Of a stretch of DNA of 52,694 nucleotides, positions 15,679-39,762 are shown one piece after another. Numbering within the stretch: the stretch's first letter is position 1; each line of letters begins with the position of its first letter. Source of the DNA: a bacterium (GTDB lineage Bacteria > Patescibacteriota > Minisyncoccia > UBA6257 > Colwellbacteraceae); assembly GCA_021787205.1 (NCBI GenBank), contig JAJYME010000002.1, positions 1 to 52,694 on the forward strand. Direction: 5' to 3'. The notes beneath the pieces are model-generated. The model was not told the origin of the DNA and made no database searches. It saw only the letters and a list, made by a program, of their open reading frames with translations. The position numbers and the translations under genes are program-made.

Positions 15679-15814
15679 AACAAGCACAGCTTTCCCGGAC
15701 GACGCAGTCTTTGTTTCCAGCGAAACAAATCTGCTCAGACTCGGCAATTTATCGCGTTTCGCGTGAACCGCGCTAAATTGCCTGCGTCATACGCCGGTGA
15801 AGGCTATGCTTGTT
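15679..15814 (-). ncRNA. Candidate structured RNA element, either a pnp 3'-UTR element or an independent sRNA
   Basis: 12-bp closing stem (AACAAGCAUAGC/GCUGUGCUUGUU, with one G-U on the minus strand only) followed by a U-run. Nested helices CCGG..GACGCAG/CUGCGUC..CCGG, GGCAAUUUA/UAAAUUGCC and UUUGUUUC/GAAACAAA. Confidence 0.35.
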
Positions 15815-18478: not shown

Positions 18479-18560
18479 GGGCGGGTGGCGAAACTGGTAG
18501 ACGCGTACGGCTTAGGACCGTATTCCGCAAGGATTGAGGGTTCGAGTCCCTCTCCGCCCA
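18479..18560 (+). tRNA. tRNA-Leu (anticodon TAG), class II with a long variable arm; CCA not encoded
   Basis: Manual fold: acceptor GGGCGGG/TCCGCCC, D arm GCGAAACTGGTAGACGC, anticodon arm TACGG-CTTAGGA-CCGTA, variable arm TTCCGCAAGGATT, T arm GAGGG-TTCGAGT-CCCTC, discriminator A. Confidence 0.9.
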
Positions 18561-18660
18561 CATAATAGGAATTAAAATAAGAATCACGAGTGAGGGAGTC
18601 GAACCGCCGGAAGCTCGCAATATATTCTTACCTTTAGCGAGCTGAGGCGCGGCCCGAAGG

Positions 18661-18706
18661 AAACCCGCAGGGTTTACCTGAGTGGTCGAGTCCCTCTCCG
18701 CCCACA
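18661..18706 (+). pseudogene. tRNA-Leu-derived 3' fragment (variable-arm-like hairpin, degenerate T arm, identical acceptor 3' strand)
   Basis: AAACCC-GCA-GGGTTT hairpin, then GAGTG-GTCGAGT-CCCTC, then TCCGCCCACA. The last 21 nt (18686-18706) are identical to 18542-18562. No matching 5' acceptor strand lies upstream. Confidence 0.5.
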
Positions 18707-19017: not shown

Positions 19018-19048
19018 AAGACAGCCCGAAAAGGCTGTCTTATTTTTT
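19018..19048 (+). terminator. Bidirectional terminator (rpsO / recombinase)
   Basis: AAGACAGCC-CGAAAA-GGCTGTCTT followed by ATTTTTT. Confidence 0.8.
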
Positions 19049-19981
19049 CTCTTCCTCATCGTCGCGACGGGCGGCGTGGAATTGTTTATGGATGTCCCGA
19101 AGCTCAGTGTTCGTCAGATGGGTGTAAATCTGGGTGGTCTGGATATTCGAATGACCGAGCATTTCTTGGACGGAGCGGATATCGGCGCCATTTACCAGAA
19201 GGTCGGTGGCGAACAAATGTCTTAGGGTGTGAGGATGGACCCCTTTCGGAATGCCGGCGGCTTTGGCATAGCGTTCAATCATTCGCTGGACAGCCCGAGG
19301 GATGATCCTGCCAATCGCCTTTGGTTCGGCGGACTTGTCGTAGCTTACAAACATTGCCTCATCGGCATCGTTTCTTTTGTCCAAATATTCCCTGATCGCC
19401 TTTTTGGCGTCACCGGAGAGAAAGACGACCCGGGTGTGTCCGCCCTTACCGGTAATACTTAACTCACCACGATCAAGGTTGGTATAGCGATCCAAGGCGC
19501 AGAGTTCCGAAACACGAAGTCCGGTTGAAAAAAGCACTTCCAGAATGGCCTTGTCCCTCAGGGCCTTCAGATCAGTTCCTTTAGGCGCCTCAAGCAAACG
19601 CTCAAGATCTTCGTATTCGATAACATCAATCTGTCTATCGGGCATGACCGGCAAATCGATCTTTTCCGGAGACAAGACCGGCAAGTCCTGCTTGATGAGG
19701 AATCTCAGGAAGTTCCTGATGGCGATGATATAATACGCCTGGGTATTCTTCTTGAGGTCGGTCTTTTCCGCCAAATAAATCCTGAAAGCCCTGATCCTAG
19801 CATTCGTGATATCCTCGACGGATTTGATTTCCTGGTTCTCAATGAATTTAAGAAGGGCTCTCTCGTAGACTTTCTTAGTCCTGGGCGAACGGTTCTTCTC
19901 GATTTGCAAATAGTCAAAATAATCCTTGAGATGGGATCTTATATCTTTTTTCTCCACCAGATAATTATAACACTGTCGCAA
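19040..19981 (-). CDS. Tyrosine site-specific recombinase, XerC/XerD-like
   Basis: N-terminal SAM-like core-binding domain. Catalytic residues in GLRVSEL, HTLRHLFATDL, LGHSNIQTTQIYTHL. The ORF-track start is TTG at 19981. A GTG at 19955-19957, 6 nt after a TGTTATAAT box, is an alternative start. Confidence 0.85.
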   Translation of the reverse strand: MRQCYNYLVEKKDIRSHLKDYFDYLQIEKNRSPRTKKVYERALLKFIENQEIKSVEDITNARIRAFRIYLAEKTDLKKNTQAYYIIAIRNFLRFLIKQDLPVLSPEKIDLPVMPDRQIDVIEYEDLERLLEAPKGTDLKALRDKAILEVLFSTGLRVSELCALDRYTNLDRGELSITGKGGHTRVVFLSGDAKKAIREYLDKRNDADEAMFVSYDKSAEPKAIGRIIPRAVQRMIERYAKAAGIPKGVHPHTLRHLFATDLLVNGADIRSVQEMLGHSNIQTTQIYTHLTNTELRDIHKQFHAARRDDEEEKK

Positions 19982-39674: not shown

Positions 39675-39762
39675 CAAAAATCTTAACTATTAATTACAGG
39701 ATTGGAACCACCGAGATAACTCCGCCGGATCTACCTCGGGAGTCCGCCAACCCCTTATTCAT

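What the first reader, a model, noticed from the sequence alone, without database searches (positions are those of the whole stretch)
18536..18706. tRNA-Leu(UAG) is followed by an inverted T-arm copy and a degenerate second 3' half
This is the same architecture as at tRNA-Ile.
- About 40 nt after the tRNA comes GAGGGAGTCGAACC (18592-18605), whose reverse complement matches the tRNA T-loop plus 3' T-stem at 13 of 14 positions.
- Next is a 7-bp hairpin with an 18-nt loop (AGCTCGC...GCGAGCT).
- Then follows a fragment that looks like the 3' half of a class II tRNA: a variable-arm hairpin AAACCC-GCA-GGGTTT and a T arm with one mismatch and G54.
- The last 21 nt (18686-18706) are identical to the real tRNA 3' end (18542-18562). 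The repeat distance is 144 bp, against 146 bp at the Ile locus.
- No 5' acceptor strand exists for the second copy.
- A weaker inverted T-arm-like segment (GGATTGGAACC) also follows tRNA-Val at about 39700.

Two independent tRNAs showing the same unusual layout argues for a common mechanism: integrase footprints, a tRNA-targeting mini-element, or a processed tRNA-like RNA.
Basis: partly seen in the sequence, partly recalled or inferred. Interest (0 to 1): 0.62.

Follow-up and report, generated by a model that had tools for sequence, protein, structure and literature searches.

The report
tRNA-linked structured repeat behind tRNA-Leu
The odd stretch behind tRNA-Leu(UAG) is one copy of a small folded, non-coding cassette found behind about a third of this tiny bacterium's tRNA genes and behind tRNA genes across its phylum; it is built like the long-unexplained "tRNA-linked repeats" of E. 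coli and is not a leftover of an integrated virus or island.

Summary
tRNA-Leu(UAG) (18479-18561) is followed by an inverted copy of its T-loop/3' T-stem (18592-18605), an 80-nt body, and an exact 21-nt copy of its own 3' end (18686-18706).

It is not a second tRNA or an integrase scar.
- The same layout follows at least 14 of the genome's 42 tRNA genes, with three unrelated body types. Two further loci hold relics.
- A covariance model built only from copies in other genomes picks out the Leu, Ile and Ala elements as its top three hits.
- That family is a three-way-junction RNA with strong covariation (37 of 38 pairs).
- It occurs in about 23% of sampled genomes of the order, and in other classes of the phylum.
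- It almost always lies just 3' of a co-oriented tRNA of any identity.
- The closing stem and 3' tail are copied from each host gene. One copy sits behind a protein gene with an 85-nt duplication.
- The nearest relative of the Leu copy is the copy behind tRNA-Ala(CGC) in the same genome. So the core moves between unrelated tRNA genes.

The closest known thing is the E. coli tRNA-linked repeats (RtT/RttR, rrA/B/F). The layout is the same, but I found no sequence homology.

Function and spreading mechanism are inferred, not shown.

The parts
18479..18561 (+). Host gene tRNA-Leu(UAG), intact; CCA not encoded
   Evidence: ARAGORN; Rfam tRNA 54.2 bits
18542..18562 (+). b1: first copy of the 21-nt direct repeat. 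It covers T-loop position 55 to one base past the discriminator-C, and is part of the functional tRNA.
   Evidence: Exact repeat found
18563..18591 (+). c: 29-nt AT-rich spacer with no terminator, so the element lies in the tRNA transcription unit
   Evidence: No terminator or promoter found; sequence
18592..18605 (+). d: inverted copy of the host T-loop plus 3' T-stem; 5' strand of closing helix P1
   Evidence: 13 of 14 match to the reverse complement of the tRNA; pairs with 18687-18696 in the minimum-energy fold
18606..18685 (+). e: conserved body. P2 is 18605-18608/18646-18649 enclosing hairpin 18612-18618/18637-18643. P3 is 18651-18655/18682-18687 enclosing 18658-18666/18670-18679.
   Evidence: 86% identical to the copy behind tRNA-Ala(CGC), with 2 compensatory pairs. 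Family model R2 aligns 18592-18697 end to end, 26.2 bits.
18686..18706 (+). b2: second exact copy of the tRNA 3' end; 3' strand of P1 plus a single-stranded acceptor-strand tail
28690..28762 (+). Host gene tRNA-Ile(UAU)
   Evidence: ARAGORN, Rfam 71.6 bits
28769..28791 (+). Intrinsic terminator CCACCTC-GCAA-GAGGTGG-TTTTT between tRNA-Ile and the element. It is the apex of the long palindrome formed by b1 and d.
   Evidence: Sequence; fold of b1..d. The consensus terminator scan did not call it.
28807..28914 (+). Complete element behind tRNA-Ile: d at 28807-28819, body at 28820-28889, b2 at 28890-28914 (25-nt repeat of 28744-28768)
   Evidence: R2 31.8 bits, E 4.8e-5, best hit in the window; folds and covariation with the tRNA-Tyr copy
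28915..29003 (+). Second, truncated unit: terminator copy, d copy (28954-28966) and the first 37 nt of the body
   Evidence: BLAST 28968-29003, 97%; weak R2 hit 28954-29014
39699..39709 (+). Possible decayed relic behind tRNA-Val(UAC): a T-loop complement with one mismatch, followed by a GCCGGA-containing hairpin and no clear 3'-end copy
   Evidence: Sequence; no repeat; no R2 hit

Best explanation
The stretch 18592-18706 is one copy of a tRNA-linked structured repeat. This is a roughly 100-nt non-coding cassette attached to the 3' end of a tRNA gene.

Shown:
- The conserved core folds into a three-way junction. P2 carries the invariant CCGGA...GAGGYG internal loop, and P3 is the second arm.
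- The closing helix P1 is not part of the core. It is made from an inverted copy (d) and a direct copy (b2) of the host gene's own T-loop/3' T-stem. b2 runs on to the end of the tRNA as a single-stranded tail.
- The family is multi-copy, occurs across the phylum, and follows tRNAs of any identity. Occupancy at the same tRNA differs between related genomes.
- The core has been copied between non-homologous tRNA genes of this genome (Leu-UAG and Ala-CGC), and each copy has ends derived from its own host.

Inferred:
1. The cassette is transcribed with the tRNA, because there is no terminator between them here. It is then released by the tRNA 3'-end machinery as a stable RNA with a tRNA-like 3' end, as shown for E. 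coli tRNA-linked repeats.
2. New copies arise by a replication or recombination copy-choice event, not by a dedicated transposase. The event is seeded by the near-palindromic T-loop (TTCGAA). It duplicates the host 3' end directly and in inverted form around the core.

What the released RNA does is not known. My best guess is that it binds a protein or a tRNA-processing factor.
For: Genome census:
- Exact 3'-end repeats follow 13 of 42 tRNAs.
- All body copies are tRNA-adjacent and co-oriented, in three body types.
- The inverted copies match the host tRNA best in 6 of 13 loci and rank in the top 6 in all.

Family membership:
- Model R2 was built only from six foreign copies.
- It scores the Ile, Ala and Leu elements as its top three hits in 58 kb, at 31.8, 26.2 and 26.2 bits.

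Structure:
- 17 of 38 pairs are compensatory in six sequences.
- In 44 distinct sequences, 93.6% of cells pair, against 63.7% in shuffles and about 40% in slid controls. 37 of 38 pairs have double changes.
- G-U pairs outnumber A-C by 50 to 23, which favours RNA of the tRNA sense.

Distribution:
- The motif is in 93 of 401 genomes of the order.
- R2 finds the family in 17 of 401 genomes of the phylum under strict filters.
- 24 of 30 loci have a co-oriented tRNA just upstream, of at least 12 amino-acid identities.
- tRNA-Leu(UAG) sites in the family are variously empty or occupied, with different bodies.

Movement:
- The Leu copy's nearest relative is the Ala copy of the same genome (0.78 identity, against at most 0.40 elsewhere).
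- One copy lies at the end of a protein gene, with an 85-nt direct repeat and an inverted copy of its first 10 nt.

Transcription context:
- There is no terminator between tRNA-Leu and the element.
- A terminator follows b2 directly in about 12 of 20 foreign copies.

E. coli analogy:
- The RtT unit has the same d/b2 closing helix.
- E. coli tRNA-linked repeats are transcribed and processed at the repeated 3' end (PMC8144298).
Against: - There are no expression data.
- In many loci of this genome, including tRNA-Ile, an intrinsic terminator lies between the tRNA and the element. Expression would then need read-through.
- The covariation in P1 would arise automatically from a copying mechanism, so it says nothing about RNA function.
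- The G-U excess is only 2 to 1.
- The alignment used for covariation counts was fitted to the model.
- No sequence homology to the E. coli repeats was detected, so that comparison is by layout only.
- The copy-choice insertion model is my construction and has no direct test behind it.
Confidence: 0.62

Rival explanations
1. It is a purely selfish, non-autonomous DNA element, like a MITE or REPIN. On this view the conserved hairpins are read as single-stranded DNA by a host or trans-acting enzyme, and no functional RNA is made.
For: - The element is multi-copy, patchy among relatives, and found in tandem partial units.
- Copies within a genome tend to be closer to each other than to copies elsewhere (mean identity 0.55 against 0.39).
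- One copy was inserted at a protein gene with a long duplication.
- b1, the terminator and d form one long palindrome that could extrude as a DNA hairpin.
- Terminators often lie between the tRNA and the element.
Against: - Unpaired nucleotides (CGGA, GAG, and the CAGCAG and GAGCGACGGCGAG loops) are conserved across classes.
- G-U pairs exceed A-C pairs on the tRNA-sense strand.
- Orientation relative to the tRNA is constant, and a terminator often follows the element.
- No transposase-like gene was seen. The only tyrosine recombinase in the genome is Xer-type, and the only reverse transcriptase belongs to a diversity-generating retroelement.
- Reverse transcriptase presence does not track the element.
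Confidence: 0.2
2. It is a cis-acting device of the tRNA operon. The inverted copy d can pair either with the tRNA's own 3' half (b1) or with the decoy b2. The cassette would then tune folding, 3' processing or termination of the tRNA precursor.
For: - d is complementary to both b1 and b2.
- b1..d folds into a long hairpin around the terminator.
- The element lies inside the tRNA transcription unit.
Against: - Only a third of the tRNAs carry it, and orthologous tRNAs in relatives do without it.
- The conserved three-way-junction core is not needed for such a switch.
- One copy sits behind a protein gene.
Confidence: 0.1
3. [quoted passage not shown]
For: - There is a 21-nt direct repeat of a tRNA 3' end starting in the T-loop.
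- A tyrosine recombinase gene lies 480 bp away (19040-19981).
Against: - The recombinase is the genome's only one and is Xer-type.
- It is syntenic with tRNA-Leu(UAG) in other genera, and rpsO lies between them.
- The same layout occurs at at least 14 different tRNAs, with 94-172-bp gene-free inserts.
- The insert is a conserved structured family found behind tRNAs of at least 12 identities.
Confidence: 0.03
4. It is a degenerate tandem duplicate: a pseudo-tRNA, or the 3' half of a split or permuted tRNA.
For: - The last 21 nt are identical to the tRNA.
- A hairpin and a near-T-arm precede them.
Against: - No tRNA model matches, even at E<=10.
- The 'variable arm' and the 'T-stem 5' strand' are conserved core positions, also present behind a class I tRNA-Ala.
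- There is no 5' half anywhere.
- The intact tRNA upstream makes a second 3' half unnecessary.
Confidence: 0.03

Closest known systems
E. coli tRNA-linked repeats (TLRs): RtT/RttR units of the tyrT-tyrV operon (Rfam RF00391) and rrA/rrB/rrF behind 5S rRNA (Egan & Landy 1978; Rudd 1999; PMC8144298)
   Same: - They lie directly 3' of a stable-RNA gene, on the same strand.
- Each unit ends in an 18-19-nt copy of the upstream gene's 3' end, starting in the T-loop.
- Units are about 100-180 nt, often in tandem and partial (3.14 copies at tyrT; 1.2-2.3 here).
- I checked on the E. coli sequence that the RtT unit also holds an inverted copy (GGGGAAGGAT) of the tRNA-Tyr 3' T-stem/acceptor. It pairs with the terminal copy to close a multi-branch fold.
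- Some sit between two terminators and are made by read-through.
   Different: - No sequence or covariance-model similarity was found. RF00391 does not hit the window elements, and models R1 and R2 do not hit the E. coli locus.
- The Patescibacteria elements have their own conserved three-way-junction core.
- They follow tRNAs of at least 12 identities and occupy a third of the tRNA genes of a 0.6-Mb genome.
Integrative elements that target tRNA T-loops (tyrosine-integrase islands and prophages)
   Same: A direct repeat of the tRNA 3' end begins in the T-loop, and the upstream copy keeps the tRNA intact.
   Different: There is no integrase and no cargo. The inserts are about 100-150 bp. Many different tRNAs carry the same core, and the inverted copy of the target lies inside the insert.
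CTX-phi-type IMEX elements and integron attC sites (folded single-strand recombination sites)
   Same: An inverted copy of the attachment sequence is separated by about 90 nt from the junction copy, so a single strand can fold into a hairpin that mimics the duplex target. Tandem arrays occur.
   Different: This is an analogy from my own knowledge only. No phage or cassette genes are present. Nothing shows that Xer acts here, and the target differs at every copy.
Enterobacterial and pneumococcal intergenic repeats (ERIC/IRU, BOX, RUP, REPIN)
   Same: They are short, multi-copy, hairpin-forming, transcribed intergenic repeats without genes.
   Different: Those have their own terminal inverted repeats and no tie to tRNA 3' ends. 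Here the terminal inverted repeat is copied from each host gene.

Membership tests
   R2 was built from six copies of other genomes. It scores 18592-18697 at 26.2 bits (E 8.6e-4 in 58 kb, filters off), 28807-28900 at 31.8 bits, and the Ala-CGC copy at 26.2 bits. These are the top three hits.
GA-GGYG flanking a covarying hairpin | tested here: met
   GAACCGCCGGA...GAGGCG at 18601-18649 is listed among the pattern matches.
   The same holds in 24 of 30 foreign loci.
E. coli tRNA-linked repeats (TLR; RtT RNA RF00391) | [quoted passage not shown] | tested here: met
   21 nt exact at Leu and 25 nt at Ile. The defining feature is as stated in PMC8144298.
E. coli tRNA-linked repeats (TLR; RtT RNA RF00391) | Sequence or structure homology to the Rfam rtT model or to the E. 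coli units | tested here: not met
   No RF00391 match at E<=10. R1 and R2 give no significant hit on the tyrT-tyrV locus.
E. coli tRNA-linked repeats (TLR; RtT RNA RF00391) | Transcribed with the upstream gene and processed to a discrete RNA | not testable with these tools
Only the context could be read: no terminator between tRNA-Leu and the element.
tRNA (second, split or permuted copy) | Cloverleaf recognised by tRNA models | tested here: not met
   ARAGORN and the Rfam tRNA model find only 18479-18561.
Integrase-mediated integrative element (att scars) | Element-encoded integrase and cargo between the repeats; one integrase per target | tested here: not met
   123 bp lie between the repeats with no ORF. 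The genome has a single Xer-type recombinase, syntenic in relatives.
MITE / transposase-dependent repeat | Element-specific terminal inverted repeats and a target duplication of fixed length | tested here: not met
   The terminal inverted repeats are host-derived and differ at every copy. Duplications range from 16 to 85 nt.

The most novel reading that the evidence does not exclude
These cassettes, and by extension the E. coli tRNA-linked repeats, may be a distinct kind of gene-less mobile element. It would spread without a transposase of its own, by a snap-back or copy-choice event. That event would copy the 3' end of the host gene twice, once inverted and once direct, around a conserved RNA core. 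Every copy would thereby be born with a host-specific closing stem and a tRNA-like 3' tail, which hands it to the tRNA-processing machinery.
Probability: 0.3. Interest if true: 0.8.

Novelty: new variant of a known kind. Interest (0 to 1): 0.55.

Why it matters
tRNA-linked repeats have been known in E. coli since 1978. Apart from three rRNA-linked copies, they still have no function or origin story.

The same design appears here in a very distant, genome-reduced phylum.
- It has its own strongly conserved and covarying core.
- It occupies about a third of the tRNA genes of a 0.6-Mb genome.
- So the design is either useful or a very successful parasite of stable-RNA genes.

Consequences:
- It gives a large set of sequences for working out how the host-specific ends are made.
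- It marks a widespread RNA family that has no match among Rfam release 15 families.
- It warns annotators that duplicated tRNA 3' ends in these genomes are not integration scars.

Tried and rejected
- **Direct searches for family B.** BLAST of the body in 60 relatives and a covariance model from its two copies in 400 genomes of the order found nothing convincing. The one hit, L006, is not next to a tRNA.
- **Exact-pattern scans of public collections.** They gave only two chance matches in high-GC genomes and none in metagenomes. Family B as such is private to this lineage. Its membership in a wider family showed only with the motif pattern and model R2.
- **Rfam.** At gathering and at E<=10 it gives no family for the elements. 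A weak BTnc231 match (E 0.024) covers only the b2/terminator part, and I treat it as noise.
- **Homology to E. coli RtT.** Short shared motifs exist (GRCCCGAAGG, a CCGCAGG-centred hairpin, GAGCGNNNGCGAG, GGATGAGAA), but they lie in a different order and the models do not support homology.
- **Reverse-transcriptase-driven spread.** The genome's only reverse transcriptase belongs to a diversity-generating retroelement. Across 401 genomes, 49 of 93 element-positive genomes have a reverse transcriptase, against 135 of 308 element-negative ones. Genomes with 5-7 copies (G325, G199, G381, G333) have none. I rejected it as a requirement.

Full report
**1. The observation**

The window is contig C11 of a 616-kb, 11-contig genome with 46% G+C. 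It has 42 tRNA genes and one tmRNA, which is the look of a Patescibacteria/CPR genome.

tRNA-Leu(UAG) lies at 18479-18561.
- the inverted T-arm copy GAGGGAGTCGAACC at 18592-18605, a 13 of 14 match to the reverse complement of the tRNA;
- the 7-bp hairpin with an 18-nt loop;
- the hairpin AAACCC-GCA-GGGTTT;
- an exact 21-nt copy of the tRNA 3' end at 18686-18706, 144 nt after the original;
- at tRNA-Ile(UAU), a 25-nt repeat with spacing 146.

No tRNA model sees a second tRNA.

**2. The layout is genome-wide**

I scanned all 42 tRNAs.
- 13 have an exact copy of their own 3' end 18-172 nt downstream.
- BLAST with the bodies finds further copies behind tRNA-Val(GAC) and tRNA-Gly(UCC), and one at a contig edge.
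- No copy lies away from a tRNA, and all are in the tRNA's orientation.

The loci read a-b-c-d-e-b(-c-d-e'):
- a is the tRNA 5' part;
- b is its 3' end from the T-loop onward;
- c is the trailer, usually with a terminator;
- d is an inverted copy of b;
- e is a 70-105-nt body.

There are three unrelated bodies.
- A follows Glu, Met, Gly x2, Arg, Leu-UAA, Pro x2 and Val x2.
- B follows Leu-UAG and Ala-CGC.
- C follows Ile-UAU and Tyr-GUA.

d is specific to its host.
- It matches the host tRNA best in 6 of 13 loci and ranks in the top 6 in all.
- At tRNA-Met it copies the C1xA72 side of the acceptor. That shows it is an inverted copy of the 3' strand, not a direct copy of the 5' strand.
- The repeats match the genomic trailer (ACA), not a mature CCA end. 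So they derive from DNA or the primary transcript.

**3. What the Leu element belongs to**

The two B copies are 86% identical in the body and show compensatory changes in both hairpins. B itself was not found elsewhere.

The elements behind tRNA-Leu(UAG) in two related genera, and the C copies, share three things with B:
- the start GAAC-(N)CC-GGA;
- the motif GA-GGYG;
- a three-way-junction fold.

A pattern built from these motifs hits 93 of 401 genomes of the order, against few control hits. The hairpin between the motifs covaries freely.

I built model R2 from six copies of other genomes only. In those six sequences, 17 of 38 pairs are compensatory.
- With filters off, R2's three best hits in 58 kb are the Ile element (31.8 bits), the Ala-CGC copy (26.2 bits) and the Leu-UAG element (26.2 bits), each aligned end to end.
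- So the 'variable arm' and the 'T-stem with G54' are arm P3 of a conserved core. Only the last 21 nt are tRNA-derived.

In a phylum-wide sample, R2 finds up to 9 copies per genome in 17 of 401 genomes under strict filters.
- 24 of 30 loci have a co-oriented tRNA just upstream.
- Those tRNAs are of at least 12 amino-acid identities.

On 44 distinct sequences:
- 93.6% of cells pair, against 63.7% in shuffles and about 40% in slid controls;
- 37 of 38 pairs show double changes;
- the alignment was fitted to the model, which leans towards the structure;
- G-U pairs outnumber A-C by 50 to 23, and several unpaired motifs are conserved across classes.

**4. Signs of movement**

- The nearest relative of the Leu copy is the Ala-CGC copy in the same genome (0.78 identity in the core, against at most 0.40 elsewhere). 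Their closing stems and tails each match their own host.
- Among 15 tRNA-Leu(UAG) loci of the family, some are empty. Some carry this core type, some carry type A, and two congeneric genomes carry different bodies.
- One copy (L079) lies at the 3' end of a protein gene. It is flanked by an 85-nt direct repeat (92% identical) and preceded by an inverted copy of the repeat's first 10 nt. So the duplication and the inverted copy are made at insertion, whatever the host.
- An 'orphan' copy (L076) follows a promoter and a 5' tRNA fragment.
- In this genome, the stretch from the T-loop of b1 to the end of d is one long imperfect palindrome in most loci, with the terminator hairpin at its apex.
- At tRNA-Thr(CGU), d abuts b2 with no body between them.

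**5. Enzymes**

- The genome has one tyrosine recombinase (19040-19981). It is Xer-type and lies next to tRNA-Leu(UAG) in two other genera as well.
- Its one reverse transcriptase belongs to a diversity-generating retroelement.
- Across the order, reverse transcriptase presence does not track the element, and copy-rich genomes lack one.
- I did not search for HUH endonucleases, Cas1 or other transposases.

**6. How it most likely works**

Shown:
- a conserved structured core;
- host-derived closing stem and tail;
- tRNA linkage and constant orientation;
- copying between unrelated tRNA genes.

Inferred from context:
- At tRNA-Leu there is no terminator before the element.
- In about 12 of 20 foreign copies a terminator follows b2 directly.
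- So the cassette is part of the tRNA transcript.
- Its 3' end is the tRNA's own 3' end. The same 3' maturation enzymes could therefore trim it, as proposed for E. coli RrB.

Inferred for origin:
- A copy-choice or snap-back event uses the near-palindromic T-loop as microhomology.
- This would give d, the body and a second b followed by the trailer again, as seen.
- I could not test this model.

**7. Comparison with what is known**

The design is that of the E. coli tRNA-linked repeats. There are 22 copies at ten loci, each ending in 18-19 nt of the upstream tRNA or rRNA. None has a known function, except that rrA/B/F bind Hfq and CsrA in vitro (PMC8144298).
- On the E. coli tyrT-tyrV sequence I confirmed the terminal copy and also an inverted copy that closes the unit.
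- No homology is detectable.
- So this works like, and is laid out like, a tRNA-linked repeat. It belongs to a separate family that matches no Rfam family.

Earlier notes of this scan reach the same reading for other copies. I treated them as leads and re-derived the points above.

**8. Verdict**

'Integrase footprint' and 'second tRNA half' are rejected. The element is a diverged member of a phylum-wide tRNA-linked structured repeat family. Its function and its mode of spread remain open.

Noticed in passing
window 15696-15799 (-): The structured element just 3' of pnp is the fourth-best hit of family model R2 (17.7 bits, E 0.065). It aligns end to end as a three-way junction, although no tRNA is nearby. 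It could be a distant non-tRNA-linked relative or chance.
   Followed up: no
G000:C2:87621-87740 (tRNA-Thr CGU): A body-less form of the layout. The tRNA 3' end is followed after 8 nt by GGGCGAGAT (inverted copy), which directly abuts a 19-nt direct copy of the 3' end. It may be an empty or excised site, or a precursor.
   Followed up: partly
L079:1380-1682: A family member inserted at the 3' end of a zinc-ribbon protein gene. It has an 85-nt direct repeat (92% identical), and the first copy keeps the reading frame and the stop codon.
   Followed up: partly
L076:1500-1760 (-): An 'orphan' copy preceded by a good promoter, the first ~23 nt of a tRNA (acceptor 5' strand plus D-arm) and a terminator. 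The element's 3' tail supplies the matching acceptor 3' strand. It could be a broken or split tRNA.
   Followed up: no
G000:C3:121113-124412: A diversity-generating retroelement: a target gene ending ...NYNVGFRCAR, an Avd-like four-helix protein, a template repeat (...NNNVGFRCAV), and a reverse transcriptase read in two overlapping frames (123323-123760 and 123729-124412), which suggests a frameshift.
   Followed up: partly
window 19040-19981 (-), L012, L013: The single Xer-type recombinase gene keeps its place next to tRNA-Leu(UAG) in three genera.
   Followed up: partly
L010 (E. coli K-12 1286000-1288200): The RtT units share short motifs with the Patescibacteria cores: GGATGAGAA after the inverted copy, GAGCGNNNGCGAG, GRCCCGAAGG and a CCGCAGG-centred hairpin. 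They lie in a different order and have no model support.
   Followed up: partly
G000:C3:1-240 and G000:C9:1-260: Two contigs start inside type-A elements (behind tRNA-Gly UCC and at the C9 edge). These repeats probably break the assembly.
   Followed up: no
window 28690-28762: tRNA-Ile with a genomically encoded UAU anticodon, alongside tRNA-Ile(GAU) and two CAU tRNAs elsewhere in the genome.
   Followed up: no
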